Source: Shigella phage Sf25. From it: 64,000 nt of DNA. The DNA lies in sequence record MF327009. One strand, given 5' to 3'. This document shows positions 4,723-63,035 of the stretch, one piece after another (the stretch's first letter is position 1; each line of letters begins with the position of its first letter). The position numbers and the translations under genes are program-made. The notes under the pieces are model-generated. The model ran no database searches and was not told the origin of the DNA. It worked only from the letters and a program-made list of their open reading frames with translations.

Positions 4723-5223
4723 CTAGTTTACATGAACATTAATCATTGCGCTGCGAGGAACTACGGAATACTCTCCAGCATGAACTACGTTCAGAAGTTC
4801 AACACCATTTTCAATCCATTGGTCAGTTACCCATCCATTTACTGGACCAGCGAATGGGCGTCGAATTGAAACATATTTACACAGCAGATCTGTAGGATCT
4901 GGAATTTTTTCAACTGGTGTTACATACATAGAAACTAAATCCATATCAATATGGGATTTTTCCTGTTCTTCTTTTTCAATTTCTGTCAATAAATTAAAAT
5001 CTTCTTCATAGATGATTAATGATGATACCTTTCCATAATAGTTTCTAATTTCCATGTACATCATACCAATGAGAATTCCATTATTAACACTAATAACAGT
5101 AAAAGGATATCCGCCAGTTGTACTAAGAAGTTCCCAAAACTTGCTATCAGTCGTATTCGACGTTGTCTGGAAATCAATTTCAGACGGTTTTTTCATTTGA
5201 TACGCAGCATTAATTTTAATCAT
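4723..5223 (-). CDS. hypothetical protein, paralogous family member
   Basis: Conserved motif WVTDQWIENGVELLNVVHAGEYSVVP shared with neighbours. Confidence 0.5.
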   Translation of the reverse strand: MIKINAAYQMKKPSEIDFQTTSNTTDSKFWELLSTTGGYPFTVISVNNGILIGMMYMEIRNYYGKVSSLIIYEEDFNLLTEIEKEEQEKSHIDMDLVSMYVTPVEKIPDPTDLLCKYVSIRRPFAGPVNGWVTDQWIENGVELLNVVHAGEYSVVPRSAMINVHVN

Positions 5224-9716: not shown

Positions 9717-10163
9717 TTATAGATTAAATCCTTCAAAATCAAGAGTATAGATAGTATATGTTGAATACTTTTTGTACTCATATCTATCTGCAATTCTAAA
9801 TACACTTCCAGCTGGTATCATTACTTCTTGTTCATCTGAAACTAATTCCATATTACGATAACGATGACTATCCGGAAACTTAAAGTTTGGATTGTATTCT
9901 TTACAGCGTAGAGCTTTTATAGCATACTCCTGGAAATTGAATACCATAGGAGCTTTGAATTCAAAAATAACTTGTGTGTTATACTCTAAAATTTCATTTA
10001 ACCAAGTATGGTCATCTGGTTTATTAGTAATACAATGAATTAAAAGTTCAATTTCAGATAAATTAAACCCTTCAGAAAGTAATTCTTCACGAATAGAAGC
10101 ACGCACCGATGCATCCATTGATTTTATTTTAAAATCTTTTAGTTGCATTACTGAGTATTTCAT
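9717..10163 (-). CDS. ModA-like protein, short (148 aa), ADP-ribosyltransferase-like C-terminal motif only
   Basis: SDEQEVMIPAG resembles the ExE region of the adjacent ModB-like ORF (REQEWMIPIG); R and STS motifs not found. Confidence 0.45.
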   Translation of the reverse strand: MKYSVMQLKDFKIKSMDASVRASIREELLSEGFNLSEIELLIHCITNKPDDHTWLNEILEYNTQVIFEFKAPMVFNFQEYAIKALRCKEYNPNFKFPDSHRYRNMELVSDEQEVMIPAGSVFRIADRYEYKKYSTYTIYTLDFEGFNL

Positions 10164-10810: not shown

Positions 10811-11226
10811 TCATATCATCGTTAGAAAGGAAAGTAAACAACTTTTTGAATTATTTTGCCCAGGGAGCCCAAGGCGGAGGGTCAAGATGGTATGAAGCTA
10901 GTTCTTCTAGAAGAGCATCTGGGGCTTCAATTCCATAATTCTGTAATACTATACGGTACTCTTTCTTATAATCACTAGAATCATTCTGGTTATTCGTAGA
11001 ATGATTATCTTCTAACATTCATATCATCGTTAGAAAGGAAAGTAAACAACTTTTTGAATTATTTTGCCCAGGGAGCCCAAGGCGGAGGGTCAAGATGGTA
11101 TGAAGCTAGTTCTTCTAGAAGAGCATCTGGGGCTTCAATTCCATAATTCTGTAATACTATACGGTACTCTTTCTTATAATCACTAGAATCATTCTGGTTA
11201 TTCGTAGAATGATTATCTTCTAACAT
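10811..11226. repeat. exact tandem duplication, 2 x 208 bp
   Basis: Unit tcatatcatcgttagaaagg...gattatcttctaacat occurs twice head-to-tail with no mismatch; covers codons 6-60 and 3' flank of the small ORF 11059..11241. Confidence 0.85.
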
Positions 11227-13530: not shown

Positions 13531-14308
13531 TTAATAGCCTCGATCTTGACGAGCGAAGTTTTCAGCATTTTTCAGATAATAAAGTTTAAAGATTTCCTCA
13601 GCTGACATTCCAAGAGCAATGAATTTATTCATGAAAAAGTGAAATTGGTCAATCAGTTCAAATTTAATTTCAAGCTGATCTTCAGGAGATAAGTCTTGAA
13701 TTTTCTTGGATTGCATTTCAGAATAACGTTTCTTCCAAGGTTTCCATACAGCAGAAGCTTCTTTTTCACCATTACTCATACCACCAAGAGAAGTATATAG
13801 CTCGCGAGTTTCATCTGCGATATAATCGTCTTGGTTTCGCAACCAAGCAAGAACTTCTCCTGCAGTTTCAAGTGAATCAGGATGACGATTTGTTTCTGGT
13901 TTATCATTAGCCAAACGAATCTGTAAATGCCGCTGCATGTCAAATTTTCTTGGATTGCATTTCAGAATAACGTTTCTTCCAAGGTTTCCATACAGCAGAA
14001 GCTTCTTTTTCACCATTACTCATACCACCAAGAGAAGTATATAGCTCGCGAGTTTCATCTGCGATATAATCGTCTTGGTTTCGCAACCAAGCAAGAACTT
14101 CTCCTGCAGTTTCAAGTGAATCAGGATGACGATTTGTTTCTGGTTTATCATTAGCCAAACGAATCTGTAAATGCCGCTGCATGTCAAGCATAACCTGCAA
14201 TGGGTCAATACTGTGCATAATATACTCAGCATATGCACGATTTGCTTTATCAACACCTTCGATCAAATGAGCACATTCATTAAAGTGAGCCATTATTTTT
14301 CCTTTCAA
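13531..14308 (-). pseudogene. 56: dCTP pyrophosphatase gene 56 (MazG-like) disrupted by a 244-bp tandem duplication
   Basis: Two overlapping ORFs (13940..14308 and 13531..14016) share an identical 81-aa block; removing one repeat unit restores one ORF of about 171 aa at the gene 56 position between soc and dam. Confidence 0.7.
13699..14186. repeat. exact tandem duplication, 2 x 244 bp, inside gene 56
   Basis: Head-to-tail identical copies; unit length not a multiple of 3. Confidence 0.85.
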
Positions 14309-15748: not shown

Positions 15749-15786
15749 AAATTTATGATAAATATTAATTTAAAGGAGGACGACGC

Positions 15787-22536: not shown

Positions 22537-23381
22537 TCACCGTTATAATCTTTTTTCACAATATGAGTTTCGCCAGTATTCCACCAATGATCAACCAAGT
22601 AAAAATGACGAGAATATACATGAAGACTTCCAACATTCCATATAATAGAACCTGCTTTATACTGACGAGTTGAATCGCCGGCATTCAAATCAGATACTAA
22701 TTTATCTAATACGTATTTTTGCCATGCATAATCATTACGGAATCCGAAGACCACGTCATTTGAGCGCATGCTTACTACTGCATTGACTTTCTTATCACGA
22801 ATCAGGTACTGTACTGTATTAGTACACATGAAATCTGACATACCATCTTTATTGTAGTCAAATTGCATGGATGGACGAGTCATGCTTACTACTGCATTGA
22901 CTTTCTTATCACGAATCAGGTACTGTACTGTATTAGTACACATGAAATCTGACATACCATCTTTATTGTAGTCAAATTGCATGGATGGACGAGTATAAAT
23001 CATGATACCACGTCGAGAATCAGGATTTTGACCAAGTTCAGCTAAACACATATCATACTGGGCATAGTTATCTTCTGACCAAATAGCCCAACCATAATTC
23101 GAGTTAATTTCGCCTTTAGAAGATGCTACCTGCTGCCAAATCTTTGGTGTTTCGCCTGGAATATCTTTGACAAACAGACTTTGAGACTTGTACCATTCAA
23201 GTTCACGCTGAATGTATTCATCATTAAGAGCGCCAAAAATAAAGGGTTCATCTGCTACAAATGATGCGCCAATAATTTCAATAGTTTTAACACCGGTTTT
23301 ATCAACTACGAAATCTTTTTCTTTTAATGCAAGCCCCAAATGAAGACGGATTTCTTCAACTGTCATAAAGTCACTAATCAT
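22527..23381 (-). CDS. 42: dCMP hydroxymethylase gp42 carrying an in-frame 38-aa tandem duplication (284 aa)
   Basis: Thymidylate-synthase-like fold; peptide VNAVVSMTRPSMQFDYNKDGMSDFMCTNTVQYLIRDKK occurs twice. Confidence 0.85.
   Translation of the reverse strand: MISDFMTVEEIRLHLGLALKEKDFVVDKTGVKTIEIIGASFVADEPFIFGALNDEYIQRELEWYKSQSLFVKDIPGETPKIWQQVASSKGEINSNYGWAIWSEDNYAQYDMCLAELGQNPDSRRGIMIYTRPSMQFDYNKDGMSDFMCTNTVQYLIRDKKVNAVVSMTRPSMQFDYNKDGMSDFMCTNTVQYLIRDKKVNAVVSMRSNDVVFGFRNDYAWQKYVLDKLVSDLNAGDSTRQYKAGSIIWNVGSLHVYSRHFYLVDHWWNTGETHIVKKDYNGEWK
22767..22994. repeat. exact tandem duplication, 2 x 114 bp, inside gene 42
   Basis: Identical head-to-tail copies, in frame. Confidence 0.85.
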
Positions 23382-24601: not shown

Positions 24602-27445
24602 TCAGCCAAACAGGAAGTCTAACGAAGCTTTTTCTTCATAGTCCATACCAGCCGATTCACACATGCCTGCAAGCGGTTTAACAAACGATTTTTGGAACAA
24701 AGTTGAGTAGTCAATCCAAGACAGTACGTCAGAACGAATTTCTTTTGGAAGTTCTGTACCCGACGGCCAAGCAATGCATTTGTCACCAAATGGATTTCCT
24801 TCACGCAATGGAAGAACCATTACTTTATTTCCATCCAAAATTGGAGCTACACCTAAACCGCTAACAGCTCGACGATAAGTTAGCACACCACGAATATGGA
24901 ACGGACATTTAAATCCTGGCCAACCTTTATCATCATATTTCGCTATATCGTTCGCAGTTTTTACTTCAGCAATAACTTTATAGTCAAGTTGACGATATTC
25001 TTTCTCGAAGTTCTTGTAATATTCTTGGACAGACTCTTCACCTTCCTGAAGAATACGACGAATACTTTCTTCGAGAGCTTCTTGGACCGCTTTAGGCGTT
25101 GAACTCTGCTGAGTTTCCATACCCATGATTTTTAGATGCGGTTCAGCAAATCGCTTATCTTCCATATCATATACGTTCAGAGCATAACGCTTTTTCGCTT
25201 TCCAAAATCCGCCAACGCCCTTTGAACCAAGTGGAGGGCAAGAAATAGCTTCACGGTCCATATGCATCAGATGCTCGCGGTTATTCATATAATCACATAA
25301 CTCACGATATGCAACATCAATCATAGGTTCCATCTTTTTCTTACCGAACTGATTCATGAATTCAACTAAATCGTTCTGCTCTTTGAATCGGTCAAGACCA
25401 ACTTTTTCAATAACTTTATCTACACAAACATATACCGAATCAGTATCACCTGCTGCAATGAAATCTTCGCCATTAGTTCCGCATACTTTATTCAGATATT
25501 CATTAATTTTACGAGCAATCCACTGAATACCAACTTGGCCGAAAATTGTGATAGCAGTAGCATTTCGCAAATCATAGTAACGGAAATGAATATTACCAAG
25601 AGCACCATAAAGACTGTTAATAAGAATTTTACGGTTCAGCTGATTTGTGTTAGCAAGTGTAGCTGCTTTTTCACACTCTTCGATCAAACTATTAAGAACA
25701 GATTCGGTGTAATTCGATAGTTCATTTAAGAAATCATCACTGAACTTAACATATCGTTCAACTTCTGGTTTAGTTGAGCAAGACCCTGCGCCTTTCATAA
25801 TAATCTTTTTAATAGCTTCGGCATTCATTTCTTCAGCGAACATTTTCTTTTTCCAATCTTTACGCTGGAAAAATACTTTAGCGATTTCCTTTGGAATGAT
25901 ACCTTCTTGATGCTTATCATACATCCATCCATTCGGAGAACAAGAATATTCATCACTCGGTTTAGGAGCTGTTCCTGCGATATATTCATGAATTGGATGA
26001 ACTTTAAACTGACCACGAATAGTCTCAGGACTAATGTTAACCTGACGAATAATGCTCGGATACAGAGACGTCAAGTCAAAACTCATAATATATCGACGAG
26101 CAATTGGTTTAGGTTCAAACACAAATGCACCCGGAAAACTCTGTTTAACGTGCGAACCTTGTTGAGGAATAACCTTATGTTCACCTTTCAATGAGTTAAA
26201 AATAATAGCATCCCAAGTTTTAATAGGACTCATTACACCGGAAAAAGGCATTTTAGCGTAATAAGACATACTTAAAACTAGATCGATAAACCCGCGAATT
26301 TTATCAATTGCTTGAACTGATTCTACGTCAATGATGTTATAACTAATGTATCGTTGATGATTAGTCTCACGAAGTTTATTAATAGGACCGTCGTATGGTA
26401 ATTTACCTTTTTTGGTTTCATGTTGAGCAACTGATTCCAAAGAGAATGACGGCAAATTAGTAAAAGCGAATTTCTTGTACAAATCTAAATAATCAAGAAT
26501 AGATACGCCATCAATAGAATAAATTTCTTTGCTGCCGTACATATTTTGAATTAGTTTGGATTTTACCCGACCGATTGGAGAGAAACGTTTCATACTGCGT
26601 TCGCCTAGAATCATTTTAACACGATTCATGATATATGGAACGTCAAACCCCTCAATATTCCAACCGGTAAAAATAGCAGGTCGTTTCTGTTCCCAGAGAT
26701 TGATATATTCCATGAGCATATCACGCTCATTATCGAATGGCATATAAATTACTCGGTCAAGAATTTCTTGAGGAACTTCATCACCACCTTCACAGTCAAG
26801 CTTAGCAGCTAACTTTGCATCCCATTTTGATACTGAACCGTACATTGAATTCAAAAGGTCGAAAACATAAAAACGATCGTCAATTGAATCGTAATGAGTG
26901 ATAGCATCAATTTCATATTCAGCTTTCATTGGGTCAGGAAATTTATCACCAGTAACCTCAATGTCACAGTTAGCTACACGAACACCGTACATTGAATTCA
27001 AAAGGTCGAAAACATAAAAACGATCGTCAATTGAATCGTAATGAGTGATAGCATCAATTTCATATTCAGCTTTCATTGGGTCAGGAAATTTATCACCAGT
27101 AACCTCAATGTCACAGTTAGCTACACGAACAAATTTTCGGTCATAAACAATTTCTGAACCATATGTATCACTGATATAAGCGAGTTTAAAATCGTTCATA
27201 CCGAGAGCTTCGAGACCGATGTCTTCCATTCGCTTCATCCAATCTCGAGCATCTTTCATTGATGGAAATTTTTGAGGAGCGCAGTTTTTACCATAGATGT
27301 CTTTGTACTTTGACTCTTCCTTACAATGCCTAAACATAGTTGGAAGATATTCTACTTCACGAGTACGTTCCTTTCCATTTTCATCAATATAACGTTCAAC
27401 AATATTATTTCCGACTGTTTCAATAGAGATATAAAATTCTTTCAT
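24602..27445 (-). CDS. 43: DNA polymerase gp43 (family B) carrying an in-frame 49-aa tandem duplication (947 aa)
   Basis: Exo I (CDIEVTG), DTDS polymerase motif, KKRY; T4 gp43 is 898 aa; duplicated block RVANCDIEVTG...LLNSMYG. Confidence 0.95.
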   Translation of the reverse strand: MKEFYISIETVGNNIVERYIDENGKERTREVEYLPTMFRHCKEESKYKDIYGKNCAPQKFPSMKDARDWMKRMEDIGLEALGMNDFKLAYISDTYGSEIVYDRKFVRVANCDIEVTGDKFPDPMKAEYEIDAITHYDSIDDRFYVFDLLNSMYGVRVANCDIEVTGDKFPDPMKAEYEIDAITHYDSIDDRFYVFDLLNSMYGSVSKWDAKLAAKLDCEGGDEVPQEILDRVIYMPFDNERDMLMEYINLWEQKRPAIFTGWNIEGFDVPYIMNRVKMILGERSMKRFSPIGRVKSKLIQNMYGSKEIYSIDGVSILDYLDLYKKFAFTNLPSFSLESVAQHETKKGKLPYDGPINKLRETNHQRYISYNIIDVESVQAIDKIRGFIDLVLSMSYYAKMPFSGVMSPIKTWDAIIFNSLKGEHKVIPQQGSHVKQSFPGAFVFEPKPIARRYIMSFDLTSLYPSIIRQVNISPETIRGQFKVHPIHEYIAGTAPKPSDEYSCSPNGWMYDKHQEGIIPKEIAKVFFQRKDWKKKMFAEEMNAEAIKKIIMKGAGSCSTKPEVERYVKFSDDFLNELSNYTESVLNSLIEECEKAATLANTNQLNRKILINSLYGALGNIHFRYYDLRNATAITIFGQVGIQWIARKINEYLNKVCGTNGEDFIAAGDTDSVYVCVDKVIEKVGLDRFKEQNDLVEFMNQFGKKKMEPMIDVAYRELCDYMNNREHLMHMDREAISCPPLGSKGVGGFWKAKKRYALNVYDMEDKRFAEPHLKIMGMETQQSSTPKAVQEALEESIRRILQEGEESVQEYYKNFEKEYRQLDYKVIAEVKTANDIAKYDDKGWPGFKCPFHIRGVLTYRRAVSGLGVAPILDGNKVMVLPLREGNPFGDKCIAWPSGTELPKEIRSDVLSWIDYSTLFQKSFVKPLAGMCESAGMDYEEKASLDFLFG
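26837..27130. repeat. exact tandem duplication, 2 x 147 bp, inside gene 43
   Basis: Identical copies, in frame; includes the Exo I motif. Confidence 0.85.
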
Positions 27446-28115: not shown

Positions 28116-28540
28116 TTTACCATTCCAATGCTAGTTTTTTGAGTTGTTTCTGTTCTTTTACGTTCTTAGTCACTTCTTTCAAAAAATCATATCTTCGACC
28201 AGTTTTGCCCATTTACCATATCTTTTACCACGAGGAACTGCAGCCATCAGATAATTAAAATGAGCTTCATCACTTAAGCCTGATCCAATTAAATTCATAG
28301 CATATACAGCTGGCATGCACTCTGGAAATTGTGATAATGCATTTTCAACCATGAATTTTGAATAATCTTTTTGAGCAATAGAGCATTTAGTTTTATTATT
28401 AATAGCTCCAATTATTTCAAAAAATTCATTTTCAGCTTTTTCTTTAAAAGAATCAGCAGCAGATTGGACAGCTGTCCAATCTTTTGAATACCAAGCAACT
28501 TGATGCTCGTTTAATTGAATATCATCTTCAAATAAGCTCA
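28116..28540 (-). pseudogene. 62: clamp-loader small subunit gene 62, frameshifted/truncated
   Basis: ORF ends prematurely (KLVEDMIF-stop, about 120 aa); conserved C-terminal peptide [23 protein letters not shown] is in the +1 frame ending at the regA start; about 46 codons missing versus T4 gp62 (187 aa). Confidence 0.6.
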
Positions 28541-38706: not shown

Positions 38707-38864
38707 ATCAATTCCTCAAAGGTAATTCATATGTTAATAATACCACGGTTTGAACTTGTTGTAAACAACTTTGTGAAAAATATTTTAGGGAATGATAAGA
38801 AAGGAACGATAGCTTAGAATGGTAATATACAGAATGCGAGAAAGAAAGGCCCAGAGGGCCCGTC

Positions 38865-39502: not shown

Positions 39503-39973
39503 TTAATCATGTTTCCACACCCCATCGGTATTTGACCAAAGTCGCTGATTATCTGATCCTCGCCACAGCTTTTTGGTCGGAAGATTTTTCTCATACTTCC
39601 CATCAATAATAACATCAACATATTTAAGCATTTCTAGTTGTTTAATATCTTCAAATTTATATCCTGTCCACAACCAAATGCTTTTATTGGGATAAAGATT
39701 TTTTACTGTTTGAACAATGCAATGAACAACATCTCGGTTATCAGGATAGAGAGGGTCTCCTCCAGTTATAGTTAATCCTTCTATATAATCATTATTCAAA
39801 CATTCAATTAATTGTTCTAGTGTTTCACCAGTGAATGGAACACCGTTTCTAGCGTTCCATGTTGATTTATTATAACACCCTTCGCATTTATGCAAACAAC
39901 CTGTAACGAAAAGAACGACCCTGCAACCAGGGCCATTCACAAAATCACAAGGATAAAATCTATCATAATTCAT
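39503..39973 (-). CDS. nrdG: anaerobic ribonucleotide reductase activating protein NrdG (radical SAM), 156 aa
   Basis: CxxxCxxC cluster (CLHKCEGC); stop/start overlap with nrdD. Confidence 0.85.
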   Translation of the reverse strand: MNYDRFYPCDFVNGPGCRVVLFVTGCLHKCEGCYNKSTWNARNGVPFTGETLEQLIECLNNDYIEGLTITGGDPLYPDNRDVVHCIVQTVKNLYPNKSIWLWTGYKFEDIKQLEMLKYVDVIIDGKYEKNLPTKKLWRGSDNQRLWSNTDGVWKHD

Positions 39974-40227
39974 TGATGCTTAACCCTATGCATGATTTCT
40001 TTATTTTTACCGAGATTAAATCCGCGCTCGTTAGGATTTCCCAAATAACCAACACCCTTCGCATTTATGCAAACAACCTGTAACGAAAAGAACGACCCTG
40101 CAACCAGGGCCATTCACAAAATCACAAGGATAAAATCTATCATAATTCATTGATGCTTAACCCTATGCATGATTTCTTTATTTTTACCGAGATTAAATCC
40201 GCGCTCGTTAGGATTTCCCAAATAACC
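39874..40227. repeat. exact tandem duplication, 2 x 177 bp, at the nrdD/nrdG junction
   Basis: Identical copies; second copy carries an orphan duplicate of the nrdG start region and a duplicate nrdD 3' end. Confidence 0.8.
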
Positions 40228-44311: not shown

Positions 44312-44701
44312 TTAATCCAAAATATTATTAGGCATTGGTTGAACACTCACAAGTTCTTTAAAGAACTCAGTAGAGTCAGGCAATTTAACCATTTCCGGAG
44401 CATGCTTACTGAATTTATGTTTACATTGACGGCATTTATATTCAAGCTCTGGTTTACGCCAGTTAATCAATTGAACTTGTTCAGTACCGCATTCAGGGCA
44501 ATTAGGAACGTTTTTAGAAGCCCTTTCACGACGTTCAACCATAACCATAATAGCATCCCATGCTGGAGGTTTAAAATCTAAATCGTCGCAGCCGTGAATC
44601 TTTCCACGCATTTCCATATCATCTTCCTCACCAGCCATAATAATTTTAATTAAACTGGAATTACTTGAAGCTGCAATGTCTTCTAATAAACGCTTTTTCA
44701 T
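44312..44701 (-). CDS. zinc-ribbon containing hypothetical protein
   Basis: CPECG...CRQCKHKF. Confidence 0.45.
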
Positions 44702-45447
44702 TTCAATACCTCAATAGCATTACGTAAACCATTTGCTTTTGCATTAAGAGCTTTTAACAATTTGGTGTGTTCTGCAATTTGGGCTTCAACTTCAATCAAA
44801 CGGGCATTGAGATATTCACGTTCTTCACTCAGATTATCAACCTTTTCTACTTTAGGCTCTTTTACAACTGTCTTATATGTATTAGGGTTCTTCAGTTTAA
44901 TTAGAATGCGTGAACTGTATAACATTGAACCATTATCTTCGGTTTCGTCATACATTTCCACTACGTCCATAATTTTTAACATCATGCGGAGTTTATAAGA
45001 CAACGAACGAATAGTTTTGTTGTGCTTATTAATTTCTTTAGCTGTCATGGTGCCAAGATTACGTGAGTAATAATAAGGAACCTGGATATTAATTAATACT
45101 GATGAACCACCTGGCTTGTGTGTTACTTCATCAGCAATAACCCAGTCCTTAACATGAACTGTATTTGTACGGTCATCGCCCGCGGTAAATAGTTTGCGAG
45201 CATGCTTAAAAAGCATATTCACTTGGTCATTGAATTGACAAGCAAATTTATCAGCAAATTTAGTTTCAGGAATGGTAGAAAACCAATCAGCCAAATGAGT
45301 CTTTTTAACATCATTAACAATAGTAAATTCAACCAAATCGGTTATAGATGTCTCAGATTTAATGAAGCTCGGCTTCATAAAGTTTTTAATGTTCTCATGA
45401 GCTACAGTAGAAGATAACATACGAGAACGTTTAAACCATTCAAGCAA
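44698..45447 (-). CDS. hypothetical protein with C-terminal coiled coil
   Basis: C-terminal heptad-rich segment. Confidence 0.45.
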   Translation of the reverse strand: MLEWFKRSRMLSSTVAHENIKNFMKPSFIKSETSITDLVEFTIVNDVKKTHLADWFSTIPETKFADKFACQFNDQVNMLFKHARKLFTAGDDRTNTVHVKDWVIADEVTHKPGGSSVLINIQVPYYYSRNLGTMTAKEINKHNKTIRSLSYKLRMMLKIMDVVEMYDETEDNGSMLYSSRILIKLKNPNTYKTVVKEPKVEKVDNLSEEREYLNARLIEVEAQIAEHTKLLKALNAKANGLRNAIEVLK

Positions 45448-45632
45448 ATTGCCTAACGAATGAGAATAAGCGTTTTGAGTATCTTTACAGATATGATTTT
45501 CCTGACCAACATATTGAAGGAAATCACGAAGAATATTATTGATTACTGCTCTGTGTCCTATCTGATAATTACGATGTTTAGTAATAAGACTGTGGTTAAT
45601 GGTTTATACTCCGAGCCATACTTGGCTTTAAA

Positions 45633-46934
45633 TTACTTAATTAACTGTAAAGCTTGTTCAAGACGATCAAGACGATTAACGGATTCTTCCCAAATCTTTT
45701 TAGCACTTTCATATTCTTTTTCTGCTTTATTTTTAATTTCTAAAGCTTCTTTATAAGCTTTTTCTAGTGCAATAACTTCTGGACGAATTTCTATTGGCTC
45801 AGGAGAATCATCGAGCCAATCCATCAATTCTTCAAGTGTGGTTTCTTCTTTAGGAGCATTCACAATTTCTTCACATTTCTTCTGATGAATTTCTTTATCT
45901 GTTAGTGAATAAGCACATTTCACTTCACGAAGACTAATTACAATTTTATATCCTTCCCATCCGCATATATTCTTAAAAGGATATGTATGAATATTTTCTA
46001 CTGTTTCCATACAAAGTAATGCAGTCTCTAACTGACGAGTTATAGTGCTAGCAATTGAGAAAAATTTATTAATATTCTTTTGGTTAGCGTTTGGTGTAAA
46101 AAATCCATAATTCACAAAAATAGCTACTTTATTTTCATCAAGCTCATATTCTAGTGAATAAGCACATTTCACTTCACGAAGACTAATTACAATTTTATAT
46201 CCTTCCCATCCGCATATATTCTTAAAAGGATATGTATGAATATTTTCTACTGTTTCCATACAAAGTAATGCAGTCTCTAACTGACGAGTTATAGTGCTAG
46301 CAATTGAGAAAAATTTATTAATATTCTTTTGGTTAGCGTTTGGTGTAAAAAATCCATAATTCACAAAAATAGCTACTTTATTTTCATCAAGCTCATATTC
46401 TTTTACGATAATCATATCAGAAGCCAAAGGATGAATTTGACGATAATCGCCATAACATAATTTAGAAGCTGATTTTAGAATTTGTCCTTTGAAAAGTCTG
46501 AAATTACTAATCCAACGACGAGTAAAAATATTCTCAGGGTCTTCTTTATTATTAAGATGATAAGAATTAACATCACCGAACCAATTATATCCTACTACAT
46601 CTTTGGTTCGTTTAATTTCTTTCCCAAAATTACCAAGAATATCCCGATTAACCAAATATGAAAGAAGACGAGACTCTTTAAAGGTTTTCTTGATATTATC
46701 TTTATCTACACGGCTAGAAATTTTACGAATTTCATGAATAAATTTAGTAGAAGAAACAATACTTGCATCAACACTATTGAGCCATTGATTGATAATGGAA
46801 AGAACGATATTTTGACCAAACATCGGTATAGCTTTATCATCAATAACGCTATTGAATGATTTGATATATTCGTTACGAGTCATATTAATCTCCTCAGTAG
46901 AAAGTAAGAACATTATACCACATCCTTGTGGCAA
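45633..46934 (-). CDS. hypothetical protein with C-terminal coiled coil, carrying an in-frame 83-aa tandem duplication
   Basis: Block EYELDENKVAIFVNYGFF...REVKCAYSL repeated twice; shares FRLFKGQILKSASKL-like motif with next ORF. Confidence 0.5.
   Translation of the reverse strand: MPQGCGIMFLLSTEEINMTRNEYIKSFNSVIDDKAIPMFGQNIVLSIINQWLNSVDASIVSSTKFIHEIRKISSRVDKDNIKKTFKESRLLSYLVNRDILGNFGKEIKRTKDVVGYNWFGDVNSYHLNNKEDPENIFTRRWISNFRLFKGQILKSASKLCYGDYRQIHPLASDMIIVKEYELDENKVAIFVNYGFFTPNANQKNINKFFSIASTITRQLETALLCMETVENIHTYPFKNICGWEGYKIVISLREVKCAYSLEYELDENKVAIFVNYGFFTPNANQKNINKFFSIASTITRQLETALLCMETVENIHTYPFKNICGWEGYKIVISLREVKCAYSLTDKEIHQKKCEEIVNAPKEETTLEELMDWLDDSPEPIEIRPEVIALEKAYKEALEIKNKAEKEYESAKKIWEESVNRLDRLEQALQLIK
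45903..46400. repeat. exact tandem duplication, 2 x 249 bp
   Basis: Identical head-to-tail copies, in frame. Confidence 0.85.
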
Positions 46935-46941
46935 AGTAAAC
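46912..46941 (-). promoter_or_regulatory. early-promoter-like site
   Basis: Minus strand reads GTTTAC-N17-TGGTATAATG. Confidence 0.45.
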
Positions 46942-48215
46942 TAGTTCAGTGCATTTAGTGCATTGTTCAGTTTAGAACGTTGCTTCGTGAGATTTTTGAC
47001 TTTTTCTTGTGCTTTTTCTAGCATCTTTTCAGCTTCTAACACTTCATTGGTCGCTTTAACGAGTTCATCATCTACTGCCTTAAGGGACTTCTCAATCGCA
47101 TCCGCGTGCCATTTTTCAACAGGTTTAAGACTCGGATTTTCAATAGGAAGAAAATTCACTTTATTGAATTTCCATGCATCTTTATTACCTGAACTATACA
47201 TCCAAAATTTAGGATCGTTTGATGAGTAATTGGATAAATTTAAATTTAAGTTATCTTGCACTTCTTGCTTTTTCTCTTGCGTGACTTCGTCCTTTCTCAA
47301 AAAATCGTATTTAAATGAAACGATCATATCAAGTTCATATGTTGTTGTGTCTAATTTAAATCGTTCGAAATGCTGTGAAATCTTAGACTGAATAGGAAGA
47401 AAATTCACTTTATTGAATTTCCATGCATCTTTATTACCTGAACTATACATCCAAAATTTAGGATCGTTTGATGAGTAATTGGATAAATTTAAATTTAAGT
47501 TATCTTGCACTTCTTGCTTTTTCTCTTGCGTGACTTCGTCCTTTCTCAAAAAATCGTATTTAAATGAAACGATCATATCAAGTTCATATGTTGTTGTGTC
47601 TAATTTAAATCGTTCGAAATGCTGTGAAATCTTAGACTGAACAGCAGCAACAACATCCATATACTTAAATGCTTCTGTCAACTGTGATTTAAGACATTCG
47701 CAAATTGAAAGAGAATTTTTTGTATTAGGTTTAAAGCTAATTCGTGCAGTTCTATTATTTTCTTTTAATGGTCTTACTTCCATCTGAAGAGTATAACCAT
47801 CAAATTTCAGGTTCTTTAAGTTAATATCAGAACCTTTTAATCGACTCGCAGTTGATAAAATTTGCTTTAATTGTCTACGGAATAGAGCAATAAATCTCCA
47901 TTCAATACGATAATGATTTGGATTGAAAAATCCAGATGATAAATCGACCTTACTTTGACCAACGCCTTGAACAAATAGAGGATTTTTATAATCAATAGTT
48001 TTACAGAAATCGGTTAGCTGCTCACGAGCAGTCATTTGTGTAATATACCCCGCTTTACTAAAATGACGTAACCATTCACTGCTATTCATATATTTAAAGT
48101 GAATATCACGATTAACTTTATCAGGGTCTAAATTATTTTGGCACAAAAATGTCATAACATCACGAGTATAGCTGGCATTACGAATCATATCTTCAATTTG
48201 AGAACGAGTTTTCAT
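46941..48215 (-). CDS. hypothetical protein with C-terminal coiled coil, carrying an in-frame 83-aa tandem duplication
   Basis: Block QSKISQHFERFKLDTTTYEL...KVNFLPI repeated twice. Confidence 0.5.
   Translation of the reverse strand: MKTRSQIEDMIRNASYTRDVMTFLCQNNLDPDKVNRDIHFKYMNSSEWLRHFSKAGYITQMTAREQLTDFCKTIDYKNPLFVQGVGQSKVDLSSGFFNPNHYRIEWRFIALFRRQLKQILSTASRLKGSDINLKNLKFDGYTLQMEVRPLKENNRTARISFKPNTKNSLSICECLKSQLTEAFKYMDVVAAVQSKISQHFERFKLDTTTYELDMIVSFKYDFLRKDEVTQEKKQEVQDNLNLNLSNYSSNDPKFWMYSSGNKDAWKFNKVNFLPIQSKISQHFERFKLDTTTYELDMIVSFKYDFLRKDEVTQEKKQEVQDNLNLNLSNYSSNDPKFWMYSSGNKDAWKFNKVNFLPIENPSLKPVEKWHADAIEKSLKAVDDELVKATNEVLEAEKMLEKAQEKVKNLTKQRSKLNNALNALN
47142..47639. repeat. exact tandem duplication, 2 x 249 bp
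   Basis: Identical head-to-tail copies, in frame. Confidence 0.85.
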
Positions 48216-48223
48216 GGTGTTCC

Positions 48224-49381
48224 TTAAGATTTAAGTAAATCAACAATTTTAATTAACTTTTCACGCTCGGATTTAGCTTTACTACTCAGTCCAGATAGTC
48301 TGAAAATTTCATCATCATATTGTTGAATAGAAATATTCAGCTCTTCAATCTGTTTATTAAAATAATCAATTTGTTCAGAATGTTTTTCGTTACTACGAAC
48401 TGGTACAGGTTTTGTAGGCAATTTAGTTGAACTGGATTCATCCGGGCGATAAATTAAAATACAACTTGAACCAATAGGGCATTTTGCACCAGATGAATAT
48501 TCTAATGTTCCAGCTTCTTTTAAAACTTCAAAAGCTAAACAGAGATGATGCCCCATATTAACATAATCTGTAGAGTGAGCTCTGATCAGCTCTTCAATCT
48601 GTTTATTAAAATAATCAATTTGTTCAGAATGTTTTTCGTTACTACGAACTGGTACAGGTTTTGTAGGCAATTTAGTTGAACTGGATTCATCCGGGCGATA
48701 AATTAAAATACAACTTGAACCAATAGGGCATTTTGCACCAGATGAATATTCTAATGTTCCAGCTTCTTTTAAAACTTCAAAAGCTAAACAGAGATGATGC
48801 CCCATATTAACATAATCTGTAGAGTGAGCTCTGATGTAATAATCATCTCCACGAATACTAAATTTAAAGCATTTAAGGTCTTCTGTATTATTGGTCTTAA
48901 AAATCATTTGTTTATCTAGACCTTTAGCTAATCGAGCGCCTAATGCTAATAATCGTCGTTGATTTTCCCACAAATCCGCAATCATTTGATCGAATGATAA
49001 TTTCGGCATTAGTCGACCATAAAGGTCATATCCTTTATTATAATTGCGAAGGATTTCACTCGCATTAATACGAGACAACGCTCCAATTTTATTAAGGGCT
49101 TTCATGATGCGATTAGATAAACCCATTCCAGACCCGTTTGTTCGTTGTAAATGTTTATCTAATCCAAACCCAATATCAACTTTAAATTTATCTAAAATTT
49201 CAGCATGAACATCTCTGTCAATAACATTCAAATCCAAAGTTTGGTTAAATCTATGAAAAAATTTATCTGGCTCTCCACGACGAAGTACAGTCCATTCATT
49301 CAATTTTTTATTAACTAAAGATTTAATTACTGCATTGACATTATTAATTACTACTGACATATTTTCCTCACTCAATTTCAA
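48224..49381 (-). CDS. hypothetical protein with C-terminal coiled coil, carrying an in-frame 83-aa tandem duplication
   Basis: Block IRAHSTDYVNMGHHLCLAFEV...NKQIEEL repeated twice. Confidence 0.5.
   Translation of the reverse strand: MKLSEENMSVVINNVNAVIKSLVNKKLNEWTVLRRGEPDKFFHRFNQTLDLNVIDRDVHAEILDKFKVDIGFGLDKHLQRTNGSGMGLSNRIMKALNKIGALSRINASEILRNYNKGYDLYGRLMPKLSFDQMIADLWENQRRLLALGARLAKGLDKQMIFKTNNTEDLKCFKFSIRGDDYYIRAHSTDYVNMGHHLCLAFEVLKEAGTLEYSSGAKCPIGSSCILIYRPDESSSTKLPTKPVPVRSNEKHSEQIDYFNKQIEELIRAHSTDYVNMGHHLCLAFEVLKEAGTLEYSSGAKCPIGSSCILIYRPDESSSTKLPTKPVPVRSNEKHSEQIDYFNKQIEELNISIQQYDDEIFRLSGLSSKAKSEREKLIKIVDLLKS
48337..48834. repeat. exact tandem duplication, 2 x 249 bp
   Basis: Identical head-to-tail copies, in frame. 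Confidence 0.85.
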
Positions 49382-49775
49382 TTTTACTAAATATACAGAA
49401 TAAGATGGAACAGACTATATAAGCACCACACACAGATTGAACTAATACCATTCCAAAGAACCAAACAATATTATCAAACAATGTCTGTTTTACGTCGAAA
49501 GGACGTAAACTTACAGTAATATTATCGCCTTTTTCTATTGATGAATACATCTCTGGTGAAATATATTCGCTAAATCTATAACCGTCTTTGAGTTCATATA
49601 CGGCAATAAACGATAAACTAGACCCCTTTACTTGAGTTCCTGTAAGGGTATTAACTACAGTAACATCATAATCTTTATAATGCATATAATCATTAATTGC
49701 GTAATAACCATATGCAACTACTACACATAAACAACATATCAATAAATTCAATCTTTTAATTATCAACTGTTTCAT
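49368..49775 (-). CDS. membrane protein
   Basis: N- and C-terminal hydrophobic helices. Confidence 0.4.
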   Translation of the reverse strand: MKQLIIKRLNLLICCLCVVVAYGYYAINDYMHYKDYDVTVVNTLTGTQVKGSSLSFIAVYELKDGYRFSEYISPEMYSSIEKGDNITVSLRPFDVKQTLFDNIVWFFGMVLVQSVCGAYIVCSILFCIFSKIEIE

Positions 49776-49830
49776 AATAATCTCAGTTAAAAGGGCTTAG
49801 AACCATTATACCATCCTTGGTATAAAGCTG

Positions 49831-50358
49831 TTATGCGAGTACCGTCTTTAACCGTTCTTCAAACTTCCGAAGAGTATTCTGGCGTTCAGCTCTTTGCTTT
49901 TTATAAGTTTCAATACGCTCTGAAATGAGAGTGTATCGTTCATTTACTGATTCTTTCATAAAATCAGGAATTTCACGAGAAGCTTTAATCTCGTCAAATT
50001 TATCAATAACAGCTTGCTCTTCAGCAATTAAGTTATCATACATCAAAATATCTTTCTTGATGAACTCAATATCTTCTTGAGTTACACGAGATAATTTAGA
50101 TGCTTTATCCTTTTTGTACTGTTCGTTAGTATCACGAGACCAGTGTAATGTACGATTTTTATTCGTATTCTTGTAAATTTCTACAATACCAATCTCATCA
50201 ATAATAACGATCCAATTCCAACGTGATTTGTAAATTTGTCCTCCATCAACAGTGATTTCACCTCCGATTGAGATGTCGTTAAAGAACTTGCTTTGTGCTT
50301 CAGATTTAAATTTACCATCGTTGTAATTTACCAAGTTGAAAATATCTTTAGCGTTCAT
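49831..50358 (-). CDS. hypothetical protein with C-terminal coiled coil
   Basis: ORF track. Confidence 0.4.
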   Translation of the reverse strand: MNAKDIFNLVNYNDGKFKSEAQSKFFNDISIGGEITVDGGQIYKSRWNWIVIIDEIGIVEIYKNTNKNRTLHWSRDTNEQYKKDKASKLSRVTQEDIEFIKKDILMYDNLIAEEQAVIDKFDEIKASREIPDFMKESVNERYTLISERIETYKKQRAERQNTLRKFEERLKTVLA

Positions 50359-50418
50359 TTTCTGTTCCTCCGTAGTTGATAGTTGTATAGTACCACAGAG
50401 GAACAGTCTTGTAAACCA

Positions 50419-50733
50419 CTAAAAGAAACTTCTTTCACAATTTTTTCCACTGAACCATGCACTTACCGCTTTCTTAGTCTCAGGAGCAGTGTTATCCATA
50501 AACCATTCAAAGGCAGCCTTTTTATGATTCTGGAGGGCTTCTCGGGCTTTAATCTGCTCACGGTCTATTAACACTAACATATGAGCCTTTCTTGTCACCA
50601 TGGGCTTCTTATGATTTTTTGAATACTCCCAGTCATTTGTCCATCGCATTGTCGTTGCGAACTGAAATACTGCTTCTTTAATTTTAGTTTCGTAAATTTC
50701 ACGAGCCTTTGAGTATAACATCATTACCTCCAT
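50419..50733 (-). CDS. hypothetical protein
   Basis: ORF track. Confidence 0.4.
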   Translation of the reverse strand: MEVMMLYSKAREIYETKIKEAVFQFATTMRWTNDWEYSKNHKKPMVTRKAHMLVLIDREQIKAREALQNHKKAAFEWFMDNTAPETKKAVSAWFSGKNCERSFF

Positions 50734-50822: not shown

Positions 50823-51857
50823 TTATTTCAGAAGAGTAACCTCAGCAATTTCTTCCCAACCGTTTTTGTCGGTCATAATAAAGTCAGCAAGATAAAGAGC
50901 AGTACGCAGTGAAACATTGCGTAAACGATTAACATTAACTTTCATCCATGATAATGCTTTATAAGTTTCTTCATCAGAAAGACCGCGCTTTTGCATCATG
51001 TCAGTTGAAAGAATAACATCTTCAACCCTGACCATAATTTCTTCATTAGTGTGAACACCCAAATCTAAATAAACCGAGCGGGACACTAATGCTTGTAAAT
51101 GTGGAGCAAGTTTAGTACCACGGTCTAATTCGCGGTCAATGTCAACGTTTGTGATAAAAACAATCGTTCCTTTAAATTCAAACTCACGCTCAATGCCTTT
51201 TTCTTCTAAGTAAGAAGACGCAGTGCTCCAGCAGACTTTACGGGTCTCTCCAGTGTCCAGAGCGGCTTTTAGAAGATTAAGAATGTCCATATCAGAGAAA
51301 ACATCCACATCATCAATCAAAAGGACAGAATTCTCTTCACGATTATTCCAAAGCTGTTCATAAAGACCGATACCAGAGATTTTACCATTAATGCTTTTAT
51401 ATTCAATGTATCCAATATCATTTGCTTTATTTAAAGCTTTATCTAAAGAATACGTTTTACCAATACCTGCTGCACCAGAGATAATTAATGAACGAATGTT
51501 TCCGTTAATAATACCATTCGTCATCATTCCCATAACATTAAATCTTTTATTAATGCGGGTTTTCATATCTTCATACGATTCTTTAACTTCTTCAACTTTT
51601 ACACCATCATATGAAATGTCTGATTTGTAAACCCAAACACCGCGACGCTTACCGTCAATTTCAACAAAAACTTTACCATCTCCTTGCGCATCTACTGGAG
51701 CATTATCAGGGAACCACTCACCTAAGAGTTCAAAAGTTCCAGAGATTTCTTTGCCAAAGTAGATACCCTTATTGATAGTTACAGTTTTCATTTTATTCTC
51801 CAAATCCGCATCAGTTGATAGTTGTATAGTACCATAAAGCTTTATGCTTGTAAACAA
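50823..51857 (-). CDS. AAA+/P-loop ATPase
   Basis: Walker A GAAGIGKT, Walker B LLIDDVD. Confidence 0.55.
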   Translation of the reverse strand: MFTSIKLYGTIQLSTDADLENKMKTVTINKGIYFGKEISGTFELLGEWFPDNAPVDAQGDGKVFVEIDGKRRGVWVYKSDISYDGVKVEEVKESYEDMKTRINKRFNVMGMMTNGIINGNIRSLIISGAAGIGKTYSLDKALNKANDIGYIEYKSINGKISGIGLYEQLWNNREENSVLLIDDVDVFSDMDILNLLKAALDTGETRKVCWSTASSYLEEKGIEREFEFKGTIVFITNVDIDRELDRGTKLAPHLQALVSRSVYLDLGVHTNEEIMVRVEDVILSTDMMQKRGLSDEETYKALSWMKVNVNRLRNVSLRTALYLADFIMTDKNGWEEIAEVTLLK

Positions 51858-51879
51858 CTTTGTGAAAAAATTTTGAAAT

Positions 51880-54465: not shown

Positions 54466-54795
54466 AATTACATACTCCTTTGAATAATATCAATAATGTT
54501 GTTCACCAAATTATACGTAAACATTGGGTAATTATATTGAATCATCACATACACAACAAACAAAACTTTCATTCTCTTCTCCTTAGCAGTTGACAAGATT
54601 ACTATACCATAACCTTGCCAACTTGTAAACCATTAAATGACGTTTTCAATAAAATTCTGAAGCTTTGTGTGAGCATCAACCATGATTTTCATTTCTTCCT
54701 TTGCGAAAGCTGTACCTCTTTCCCTAGCAGAATACTCATAATCAGAAACTGCATTAGCATATTCTTCAATTAGCTTCATTAAAAACATCTGCTTT

Positions 54796-55211: not shown

Positions 55212-55363
55212 GCCATGTGAGTTGCAACTTCATCACACATATTATAACGTTTCTTAAGAAATTCTACAAGTTCTTCACTAGTAACTTCATCCATGTCGAC
55301 GAAAAAATCACCATTAATGATGACGTAGATATTTCCTTCTTGATTGAGTGCTTCAATTTTCAT
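55175..55363 (-). CDS. hypothetical protein
   Basis: ORF track. Confidence 0.3.
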
Positions 55364-55376
55364 GATGTTCTCCTCT

Positions 55377-55700
55377 TTATCCGATAGTTGTATAGTACCA
55401 CAGAATGCTGTTAGATTGGTCTAGTATGTGATCAATCATTTTAATTGTGTCGGTAGGAAGTTTACTGGCATCTGGAATTGAAGGCGTGTATTTTCTACCA
55501 GAATACCCCAAATATTGCTCACCAAATTTATCAATCAAATCTGGCAACTCGGAGAAAATAAAATCGTATGCTTTGTGTCTAGCATAACTTTTAGTTTCAA
55601 AATGCGCAGAATGAAAATAAGCTTGTGCAGCCATTAATAAACCTAAGTATTCATCTGCCTTTGAAGGTTTTCCACTTTGTGAAAAGTCGCTGAATTTCAT
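55377..55700 (-). CDS. hypothetical protein
   Basis: ORF track. Confidence 0.4.
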
Positions 55701-61608: not shown

Positions 61609-62082
61609 TTATTTGAACGATTTAACGTACTGAATAGAACCTTTACTATTTACAAAGGCAATTTTACCATTTTTATTATACATTGTAGCAGTACGTTGAT
61701 AGCCATAAGTTTGTTTACCAGATTGATAACCAACTAATGCAAAATTATCTTCACCCATTTTATTCTGTTTAGCGCGAATGCGTTCATGACCATGTGCCAT
61801 AAGAACCTTAGCATCACCAGTTGCAATGGATCGACGAGTTTTTTCATCTTCAACTGTATTAACAAAGTCGTCAAATGAATCAAATTTAGCATGAGATTTA
61901 TTATACAATTTTCCATCTACTGCATAATTATATCCCTGTACATCCATCTCAACTTCTGTACCATCATCCAATACAGCAGTAATTTTCTGTCCTTTTTTAA
62001 ATTTCAAAAGATCAGTAAAAGATTCAGCAATAATTTGAGAATTAATAGCTGCTTCAGTGATAAATTCTTGATATGTTTTCAT
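61609..62082 (-). CDS. internal protein (capsid-targeted), 157 aa
   Basis: N-terminal capsid targeting sequence MKTYQEFITEA; adjacent to e as T4 ipII/ipIII. Confidence 0.55.
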   Translation of the reverse strand: MKTYQEFITEAAINSQIIAESFTDLLKFKKGQKITAVLDDGTEVEMDVQGYNYAVDGKLYNKSHAKFDSFDDFVNTVEDEKTRRSIATGDAKVLMAHGHERIRAKQNKMGEDNFALVGYQSGKQTYGYQRTATMYNKNGKIAFVNSKGSIQYVKSFK

Positions 62083-62098
62083 GTGTATCCTTTAATTT

Positions 62099-62416
62099 TT
62101 ATTCTTTAGGGAAGTTTTTAGAATATGCATCATAAAGCTTATTTCCAATACGGCGGAAAACTCTAGCCGCAAAACGATTTTCTGGGTTTTTAATCATGAT
62201 TTGCATCATATAAGTACCCGCGTCAGAAAGAGCTTCTTCATAGTACCCGTTAATTTCTTTAAGAGTCCTACGTTTACCGCCAGGACCATCAACAGTGATT
62301 TTCCATTTACCTGTAGAAGTGCGACTTGGCGGCTCAACTTGTTCAATCCAGATATAACCGCCTTCTACACGTTGTCCTGCAGCAGATTCTGCAATAAATT
62401 CTTGATAGGTTTTCAT
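62099..62416 (-). CDS. internal protein (capsid-targeted), 105 aa
   Basis: N-terminal capsid targeting sequence MKTYQEFIAES. Confidence 0.55.
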   Translation of the reverse strand: MKTYQEFIAESAAGQRVEGGYIWIEQVEPPSRTSTGKWKITVDGPGGKRRTLKEINGYYEEALSDAGTYMMQIMIKNPENRFAARVFRRIGNKLYDAYSKNFPKE

Positions 62417-62470
62417 GTGTTTCCTTTAAATATTTTAATTAGTAATTTGTCTCTTCAAGCAACTGTGAAT

Positions 62471-62500: not shown

Positions 62501-62504
62501 AACT

Positions 62505-63035
<531 letters not shown>

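What the first reader, a model, noticed from the sequence alone, without database searches (positions are those of the whole stretch)
47142..47639. 249-bp perfect in-frame tandem duplication in coiled-coil ORF 46941..48215
An 83-aa block (QSKISQHFERFKLDTTTYELDMIVSFKYDF...KVNFLPI) is repeated exactly. The unit length is the same as in the two flanking genes.
Basis: seen in the sequence. Interest (0 to 1): 0.55.

Follow-up and report, generated by a model that had tools for sequence, protein, structure and literature searches.

The report
Artefactual tandem duplication in phage nrdC.5
The exact 249-bp repeat is really in the sequence, but it is one of twelve clean duplications and deletions unique to this T4-like phage sequence, two of which truncate genes for conserved replication and nucleotide functions (the gp62 clamp-loader subunit is core), so it most likely reflects how the sequence was put together and not biology.

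Summary
Observation confirmed. Window 47142-47390 and 47391-47639 are 100% identical, in frame, inside ORF 46941..48215 (- strand, 424 aa). The two flanking genes each carry a perfect 249-bp duplication.

The gene is the T4 nrdC.5 homologue (Pfam DUF7235), an accessory early gene reported to counter the Dsr1 sirtuin defence.

The duplication is not a feature of this gene family:
- About 500 GenBank Tequatrovirus records, 13 public contigs and 56 homologue clusters all show one copy (334-342 aa).
- The window holds eight perfect 2.0-copy tandem duplications (114-249 bp) and at least four clean private deletions (47-156 bp).
- Junction microhomology (mean 0.75 bp) equals the random-breakpoint expectation (0.77 bp). 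Genuine T4 rearrangements use 6-10 bp.
- One duplication frameshifts gene 56 (dCTPase) and one deletion truncates gene 62 (clamp loader).
- Point differences from the nearest relative are 391 synonymous to 35 non-synonymous, with no stops.

A well-selected natural genome therefore carries unselected, zero-age structural changes. The best reading is a sequence-construction artefact: pieces joined without merging overlaps or filling gaps (sizes cap at 249), or in-silico editing. Interest is low and this is not a real feature. Reads were not available, so this is inference.

The parts
46941..48215 (-). ORF of 424 aa. It is the homologue of T4 nrdC.5 (Pfam DUF7235) carrying the 83-aa duplication. 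Relatives are 334-342 aa.
   Evidence: (PF23882, 464 bits against a cut-off of 30, matched in two stretches)
47142..47390 (-). Copy 1 of the 249-bp unit (protein residues 277-359 on the - strand).
47391..47639 (-). Copy 2 of the 249-bp unit (protein residues 194-276). The junction at 47390|47391 has 2 bp of chance microhomology.
   Evidence: The junction 80-mer is never contiguous in the listed top hits among 491 phage records.
45903..46400 (-). Perfect 2 x 249-bp tandem duplication in the nrdC.4 homologue (ORF 45633..46934).
48337..48834 (-). Perfect 2 x 249-bp tandem duplication in the nrdC.6 homologue (ORF 48224..49381).
10811..11226 (-). Perfect 2 x 208-bp duplication covering the modA.2 3' part plus the intergenic promoter region. 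It breaks no ORF.
13699..14186 (-). Perfect 2 x 244-bp duplication inside gene 56 (dCTPase/dUTPase). It is a frameshift: the gene is split into ORFs 13940..14308 and 13531..14016.
   Evidence: Gene 56 is an intact 172 aa in L012-L015.
22767..22994 (-). Perfect 2 x 114-bp duplication in gene 42 (dCMP hydroxymethylase), adding 38 aa.
26837..27130 (-). Perfect 2 x 147-bp duplication in gene 43 (DNA polymerase), adding 49 aa.
39874..40227 (-). Perfect 2 x 177-bp duplication across the nrdD stop / nrdG start overlap. Both ORFs stay intact.
9990..9991 (-). Junction of a private 156-bp in-frame deletion in modA (148 aa here against 200 aa in relatives).
28190..28191 (-). Junction of a private 139-bp deletion in gene 62 (clamp-loader subunit). 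It is a frameshift: native sequence ends after residue 117 of 187.
45592..45593 (-). Junction of a private 47-bp deletion that removes the nrdC.3 start codon and ribosome-binding site.
55402..55404 (-). Junction of a private 145-bp deletion that removes the mobD.6 3' end and the intergenic region.

Best explanation
The ORF is the nrdC.5 homologue of a Tequatrovirus (T4-like phage). In T4, nrdC.5 is an accessory early gene reported to let the phage overcome the Dsr1 sirtuin defence. The exact 249-bp repeat inside it is not an evolved or functional feature. It is one of twelve junction offsets peculiar to this copy of the sequence: eight overlaps that read as perfect tandem duplications (114-249 bp) and four gaps that read as clean deletions (47-156 bp). 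The most economical mechanism is non-biological. Pieces of sequence were joined end to end without merging their overlaps or filling their gaps. The overlap would be bounded by roughly a 250-nt read, which would explain three events at exactly 249 bp. Alternatively, the sequence was edited in silico. The real phage is inferred to encode a single-copy NrdC.5 of about 341 aa. Shown here: the repeat exists, it is private, it is one of twelve such events, junctions behave as random breakpoints, and genes 56 and 62 are broken. Inferred: the artefactual origin and the particular route to it.
For: (1) Privacy. The closest GenBank relative, Sf24, has one copy at all eight duplication sites. In a 4-kb search of 502 phage records the best hits all align in five pieces, that is, broken at the three 249-bp duplications and the 47-bp deletion. 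The junction 80-mer matches the listed top hits among 491 records only as two pieces about 245 bp apart. Thirteen public contigs (L004-L016) all break at the same window coordinates. The exact 424-aa protein is not in a 153-billion-gene index. All 56 homologue clusters are <=342 aa, with an 83-column gap in all 18 aligned.
(2) It is not an isolated event. There are eight perfect 2.0-copy duplications plus four clean private deletions.
(3) Junction microhomology is 0,1,0,1,0,1,2,1 bp, mean 0.75, against 0.77 for simulated random breakpoints. None of 5,178 available >=6-bp direct-repeat pairs was used. Genuine T4 amplifications and deletions have 6-10 bp microhomology (PMC9391042).
(4) Viability. 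The 244-bp duplication frameshifts gene 56 and the 139-bp deletion truncates gp62 after residue 117 of 187. gp44/gp62 is listed in the T4 Core Genome table (PMC2993671).
(5) By contrast, point differences from Sf24 in 27 intact genes are 391 synonymous to 35 non-synonymous codons with no stops. The underlying genome is natural and selected, while the structural changes are unselected and of zero age (copies 100% identical).
(6) Internal control. The window's truly divergent stretches (3700-5300, 61900-62600) do have contiguous one-piece matches in other phages.
(7) All 12 events are <250 bp, and the maximum, 249, recurs three times, which suggests a technical cap.
Against: No reads and no source record were available. 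Three strain-specific proteins are not on record, a fourth occurs only on L016, which is a different strain, and a strain-specific 40-mer is absent from all three contig collections. The artefact is therefore inferred and not observed. Six of eight duplication lengths are multiples of three (p about 0.02 if independent) and seven of eight leave reading frames open, which could hint at selection. The signal weakens if 249 is a cap counted once. The three equal-length events sit in three adjacent genes next to a fourth event, a clustering that a purely random model explains only marginally. Base-level quality is otherwise high, with no small frameshifts, so this is not a generally poor assembly. 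Identity to Sf24 does not change abruptly at the junctions, so there is no positive evidence that the joined pieces came from different strains.
Confidence: 0.86

Rival explanations
1. These are genuine structural variants, but from non-clonal or defective genomes. One example is a haplotype assembled from a phage population or metagenome in which defective genomes persist by complementation. Another is a chimeric consensus of several minority variants.
For: The underlying sequence is a natural, previously unsampled Tequatrovirus strain. T4 is known to generate duplications and deletions readily (PMC9391042). Lesions in genes 56 and 62 could be tolerated if complemented in trans.
Against: Twelve events on one 64-kb haplotype, every one with two exactly identical copies or a clean junction, and none with the 6-10 bp microhomology typical of T4. 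A consensus assembly would not normally fix twelve independent minority variants. Three events have an identical length of 249 bp.
Confidence: 0.07
2. It is a genuine, very recent tandem duplication in a viable phage, made by homology-independent illegitimate recombination (for example topoisomerase-mediated or template switching). nrdC.5 tolerates the insert because it is non-essential.
For: nrdC.5 is dispensable in the laboratory, since it is lost in evolved T4 clones. The duplication is in frame and keeps the ORF open. The three nrdC.4/5/6 duplications alone would be compatible with viability.
Against: The same sequence carries a frameshifted gene 56 and a truncated gene 62, so the genome as written should not be viable. 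No relative or homologue shows the duplication. Microhomology is at chance level. There is zero divergence between copies at all eight sites.
Confidence: 0.05
3. It is an adaptive internal domain duplication in an anti-defence protein. NrdC.5 and its neighbours NrdC.4 and NrdC.6 would have expanded a module to alter their interaction with host defence proteins such as Dsr1.
For: NrdC.5 has an anti-defence role. Three neighbouring accessory genes of similar architecture carry same-sized in-frame duplications.
Against: The three proteins show no significant pairwise similarity, and the duplicated blocks are not at equivalent positions. The unit lies inside the single DUF7235 model and is not a recognised repeat module. 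In a low-confidence model its left boundary falls inside a predicted helix (168-197). No family member among 56 clusters has it. Identical DNA copies mean there has been no time for selection. Five further duplications and four deletions elsewhere have no such rationale.
Confidence: 0.02

Closest known systems
T4 NrdC.5 (Pfam DUF7235 / PF23882), accessory early gene that counters Dsr1 (Srikant, Guegler and Laub 2022, PMC9391042)
   Same: Strong Pfam match (464 bits). It is 96% identical to homologue P0001 outside the insert. Synteny is the same, between the nrdC.4 and nrdC.6 homologues, downstream of nrdC.7-11 and upstream of nrdC.
   Different: It is 424 aa here against 334-342 aa in all full-length family members, because residues 194-276 are written twice.
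Microhomology-mediated segmental amplifications and compensatory deletions in T4 (PMC9391042 and the works it cites: Kumagai 1993, Wu 1991, Mosig 1987)
   Same: Tandem head-to-tail repeats and deletions in the accessory early region of a T4-type genome.
   Different: The known events are kb-scale, contain whole genes under selection, are bounded by 6-10 bp microhomology and spare essential genes. Here the events are 47-249 bp, mostly intragenic, have chance-level (0-2 bp) microhomology, and two truncate gp56 and the core clamp-loader subunit gp62.
Assembly or finishing artefacts in which overlapping contig ends are concatenated without merging (for example k-mer-length terminal repeats on circular contigs). 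This comparison rests on my own knowledge.
   Same: Perfect identity of the two copies, no homology requirement at the junction, several events in one record, sizes bounded by a technical limit, co-occurrence with small gaps, and absence from all relatives.
   Different: Neither read support nor the source record could be examined. The usual de Bruijn artefact has one fixed length (k or k-1), whereas the lengths here vary from 114 to 249.

Membership tests
NrdC.5 / DUF7235 (PF23882) | Significant match to the family profile above Pfam's gathering score | tested here: met
   464.2 bits against a cut-off of 30, E 2.9e-139. The match comes in two stretches because of the duplication.
NrdC.5 / DUF7235 (PF23882) | Conserved position in the Tequatrovirus nrdC-mobD accessory region, between nrdC.4 and nrdC.6 | tested here: met
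   Collinear with Sf24 gp216-218 and with eight public contigs.
NrdC.5 / DUF7235 (PF23882) | Family length and architecture (single DUF7235 region, about 334-342 aa) | tested here: not met
   424 aa as written. All 56 clusters are <=342 aa. The criterion is met once one 83-aa copy is removed.
NrdC.5 / DUF7235 (PF23882) | Ability to restore infection against Dsr1 | not testable with these tools
   Known only for T4 nrdC.5 from PMC9391042.
T4 microhomology-mediated segmental amplification | 6-10 bp microhomology flanking the unit, one copy retained at each junction | tested here: not met
   2 bp at this junction. The eight junctions have 0-2 bp, mean 0.75, against a random expectation of 0.77.
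T4 microhomology-mediated segmental amplification | The unit comprises whole gene(s) whose dosage is selected, with variable copy number | tested here: not met
   The unit is 249 bp and intragenic, with exactly 2.0 copies. Copy-number heterogeneity cannot be assessed without reads.
Natural internal protein repeat / domain duplication | The repeat is present in homologues, or the copies have diverged | tested here: not met
   It is absent from all homologues, and the copies are 100% identical at the DNA level.
Sequence-construction artefact (unmerged overlaps, unfilled gaps, or in-silico edits) | Multiple perfect, private events with random-like breakpoints and no regard for gene function | tested here: met
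   Twelve events. Two truncate gp56 and the core clamp-loader subunit gp62. dN/dS-like contrast with point differences.
Sequence-construction artefact (unmerged overlaps, unfilled gaps, or in-silico edits) | No read support for the junctions | not testable with these tools

The most novel reading that the evidence does not exclude
The window faithfully records a T4-like genome, or a complemented defective genome, that underwent a burst of homology-independent small duplications and deletions of 50-250 bp. Such a burst could come from aberrant template switching by a DNA polymerase that itself carries a 49-aa insertion, working with a crippled clamp loader. Three same-length in-frame duplications in the adjacent anti-defence-region genes nrdC.4/5/6 would then be real.
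Probability: 0.03. Interest if true: 0.6.

Novelty: not a real feature. Interest (0 to 1): 0.06.

Why it matters
If taken at face value, the repeat would suggest domain expansion in an anti-defence protein (NrdC.5, anti-Dsr1) and its neighbours. The evidence shows it should not be read that way. Its practical value is as a quality flag. This 64-kb sequence contains 12 structural errors, and any gene model, protein length or repeat statistic taken from it would be wrong. Affected genes are 42, 43, 56, 62, modA, nrdC.3-6 and mobD.6. The underlying strain is a genuine, unsampled relative of Shigella phage Sf24.

Tried and rejected
(1) Finding the source record. The exact junction and a strain-specific 40-mer (window 45792) were scanned in viral, metagenome and genome contig collections and all returned 0. 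The negatives for the junction are therefore uninformative about the source. Exact-protein look-ups of 4723-5223, 2732-3145 and 49368-49775 are not on record. The one hit, Logan SRR10424189 (L016), is a different strain at 97-99% and lacks both events it spans.

(2) The idea that identity to Sf24 jumps at the junctions, which would indicate pieces from different strains. This is rejected. The 400-bp flanks on either side are similar, and the segment-wide differences come from internal divergent patches.

(3) Codon-phase alignment of the intragenic duplications as a sign of protein-aware editing. All six are compatible, but the chance probability is about 0.066, and the 244-bp event is not a multiple of three. 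Inconclusive.

(4) Excess of in-frame lengths (6 of 8, p about 0.02). It is not robust if 249 is a cap counted once.

(5) Paralogy of NrdC.4/5/6 with duplications at equivalent positions. There is no significant pairwise similarity and the boundaries are not equivalent.

(6) Structure of the 424-aa protein. The AF2 model had mean pLDDT 40.6, and only the C-terminal helix was confident, so no fold search was run. No PDB relative was found.

(7) The divergent stretches 3700-5300 and 61900-62600 as possible further rearrangements. They are natural alleles with contiguous matches in Salmonella phage Manna and phage PP01.

Full report
WHAT IS IN THE SEQUENCE

Tandem Repeats Finder reports a 249-nt unit in 2.0 copies at 47142-47641 with 100% matches and no indels. 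The repeat finder gives the copies as 47142-47390 and 47391-47639. A direct shift comparison shows 251 consecutive matching positions, that is, the unit plus 2 bases of chance microhomology. The repeat lies in ORF 46941..48215 on the - strand (424 aa, ATG start), and the 83-aa block QSKISQHF...KVNFLPI occurs at residues 194-276 and again at 277-359.

WHAT THE LOCUS IS

The window is the early-gene region of a Tequatrovirus (T4-like phage). It runs from rIIA.1/gene 39 to e.2, with essentially all genes on the - strand. The best GenBank relative is Shigella phage Sf24 (MF327008.1) at about 97%. By synteny and annotation the finding's ORF is the nrdC.5 homologue, flanked by the nrdC.4 and nrdC.6 homologues. 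It matches Pfam DUF7235 (PF23882) at 464 bits against a cut-off of 30, in two stretches because of the repeat. In T4, nrdC.5 is an otherwise uncharacterised early gene whose expression restored infection of cells carrying the Dsr1 sirtuin defence (PMC9391042). No solved structure is related. An AF2 model built with 18 homologues was poor (mean pLDDT 40.6). Only the C-terminal helix 366-423 was confident, so 'coiled-coil' applies at most to the tail, downstream of the duplicated block.

THE DUPLICATION IS PRIVATE TO THIS SEQUENCE

- Sf24 has one copy.
- In a megablast of 45500-49500 against 50,697 phage records, 502 records matched. The best all align in five pieces spanning about 3,300 bp, which is what three 249-bp duplications plus one deletion in the query would produce.
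- An 80-mer centred on the junction matched 491 records, but in the listed top hits only as two pieces about 245 bp apart, never contiguously.
- Eight public contigs carrying an identical NrdC.8 encode NrdC.4/5/6 of 333-343, 339-341 and 295-296 aa. All 13 fetched contigs break co-linearity at exactly the window's junction coordinates.
- The 424-aa protein is not on record in the gene index.
- A search of 5.8 billion proteins returned 56 homologue clusters, all <=342 aa. In an alignment, all 18 homologues show an 83-column gap opposite one copy, while the rest of the protein is up to 96% identical.

IT IS ONE OF TWELVE SUCH EVENTS

The window contains eight perfect 2.0-copy tandem duplications:

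| Start | Unit (bp) | Location and effect |
|---|---|---|
| 10811 | 208 | modA.2 3' part plus intergenic promoter; no ORF broken |
| 13699 | 244 | inside gene 56; frameshift |
| 22767 | 114 | gene 42; adds 38 aa |
| 26837 | 147 | gene 43 DNA polymerase; adds 49 aa |
| 39874 | 177 | nrdD/nrdG junction; harmless |
| 45903 | 249 | nrdC.4 homologue |
| 47142 | 249 | nrdC.5 homologue (the finding) |
| 48337 | 249 | nrdC.6 homologue |

Comparison with Sf24 and the other contigs also revealed four clean deletions found only in the window:

| Junction | Size (bp) | Effect |
|---|---|---|
| 9990\|9991 | 156 | in-frame loss in modA (148 aa against 200 aa) |
| 28190\|28191 | 139 | gene 62 frameshift; gp62 truncated after residue 117 of 187 |
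| 45592\|45593 | 47 | removes the nrdC.3 start codon and ribosome-binding site |
| ~55403 | 145 | removes the mobD.6 3' end and intergenic region |

Gene 56 is split into a 122-aa N-terminal ORF and an out-of-frame restart. It is an intact 172 aa in four contigs that share the window's Dda allele.

WHY THIS IS NOT BIOLOGY

First, junction microhomology at the eight duplications is 0,1,0,1,0,1,2,1 bp (mean 0.75), indistinguishable from 200,000 simulated random breakpoints in the de-duplicated window (mean 0.77). The window offers 5,178 pairs of >=6-bp direct repeats at 100-250 bp spacing, and none was used. Genuine T4 amplifications and deletions have 'typically 6-10 bp' microhomology at their boundaries (PMC9391042).

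Second, the genome as written should not be viable. The gp44/gp62 clamp loader and gp43 are listed in the Core Genome table of T4-like viruses, and gp56 dCTPase-dUTPase builds the hydroxymethyl-dCTP pool (PMC2993671). The lethality of gene 56 and gene 62 mutants in T4 is established knowledge that I cite from memory.

Third, the point differences tell the opposite story. Across 27 intact genes (24 kb) the window differs from Sf24 at 391 synonymous and only 35 non-synonymous codons, with no premature stop. No gene shows small frameshifts. The underlying genome is therefore a natural strain under purifying selection. The structural changes are unselected and of zero age, since all copies are 100% identical.

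Fourth, there is an internal control. The window's naturally divergent stretches (3700-5300, a MotB-region allele; 61900-62600, an ip10/ipIV-type allele) find contiguous one-piece matches in other phages. No structural-variant junction does.

Fifth, all twelve events are shorter than 250 bp, and the maximum value, 249, recurs three times, which suggests a technical ceiling.

MOST LIKELY MECHANISM (INFERRED)

Sequence pieces were joined end to end without merging overlaps, which gives perfect tandem duplications up to about one 250-nt read length, and without filling gaps, which gives clean deletions. Deliberate in-silico editing would look the same. Either way, the true phage is inferred to have a single-copy NrdC.5 of about 341 aa.

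WHAT REMAINS UNEXPLAINED

The three equal-length events lie in three adjacent genes, next to the 47-bp deletion, giving four events in 2.7 kb. That clustering is only marginally compatible with random placement. Six of eight duplication lengths are multiples of three (p about 0.02 if independent), and all six intragenic duplications can be placed on codon boundaries (p about 0.066). These could reflect a cap plus chance, protein-aware editing, or weak selection. They do not rescue a biological reading, because genes 56 and 62 are broken in the same sequence. The three proteins show no significant pairwise similarity and the duplicated blocks are not at equivalent positions. Identity to Sf24 does not change abruptly at the junctions.

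VERDICT

The interpretation as a noteworthy property of a coiled-coil gene is not supported. This is best explained as an artefact of sequence construction (confidence about 0.86). Interest is low. The decisive test is read mapping or PCR across 47,050-47,750 and across the gene 56 and gene 62 lesions.

Noticed in passing
window 10811-11226, 13699-14186, 22767-22994, 26837-27130, 39874-40227: Five further perfect 2.0-copy tandem duplications (208, 244, 114, 147, 177 bp). They lie in modA.2/intergenic, gene 56 (frameshift), gene 42 (+38 aa), gene 43 (+49 aa) and the nrdD/nrdG junction. All are absent from Sf24 and the other relatives.
   Followed up: yes
window 9990|9991, 28190|28191, 45592|45593, ~55403: Four clean deletions private to the window. 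A 156-bp in-frame loss in modA removes IKSRLVPNDKPLWRG...HFASG. A 139-bp frameshift truncates gp62. A 47-bp loss removes the nrdC.3 start codon and RBS. A 145-bp loss removes the mobD.6 3' end and intergenic region.
   Followed up: yes
window 4723..5223 (- strand) and surrounding 3700-5300: A MotB-region ORF of 166 aa is only 51% identical to the Sf24 counterpart and is not on record as an exact protein. It is a natural rare allele: the 1.6-kb stretch matches Salmonella phage Manna contiguously at 95%.
   Followed up: partly
window 62047-62100 and 62381-62434; 61900-62600: An 83%-similar 54-nt direct repeat at two gene starts, within a stretch that has no Sf24 counterpart. It is a natural internal-head-protein allele (ip10/ipIV type) and is contiguous at 98% in phage PP01.
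   Followed up: partly
window 3652-3733, 5763-5802, 15718-15764, 18096-18141, 24411-24504, 38723-38785, 50342-50435, 51781-51874, 54568-54613, 55359-55404, 62470-62516: Families of 40-63-nt imperfect direct repeats (GTAAACAAC...TATAGTACC-type) at gene starts. On the - strand they look like T4 early/middle promoter plus RBS regions. They are also present in Sf24.
   Followed up: no
GenBank relatives of window 44700-49800: Many deposited Tequatrovirus records label the nrdC.3-nrdC.7 homologues 'thioredoxin'. The nrdC.5 protein matches only DUF7235 and no thioredoxin family, so this looks like propagated mis-annotation from the neighbouring nrdC gene name.
   Followed up: partly
Sf24 homologues of window ORFs 44698..45447, 45633..46934, 46941..48215, 48224..49381 (alignment A3): NrdC.3, NrdC.4, NrdC.5 and NrdC.6 share a loose architecture: an MKTR/MTR-type N-terminus in three of the four, a central ...A(S/R)(R/K)L... 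motif and a C-terminal helical tail. Pairwise BLASTP is not significant. They could be very distant paralogues.
   Followed up: partly
protein hits P0053, P0003, P0010 and others: DUF7235 proteins are attributed in source databases to Enterococcus faecalis, Salmonella enterica, Shigella flexneri and E. coli assemblies. The contigs are ~166-170 kb or short fragments. These are most likely T4-like phage contigs deposited within bacterial assemblies.
   Followed up: no
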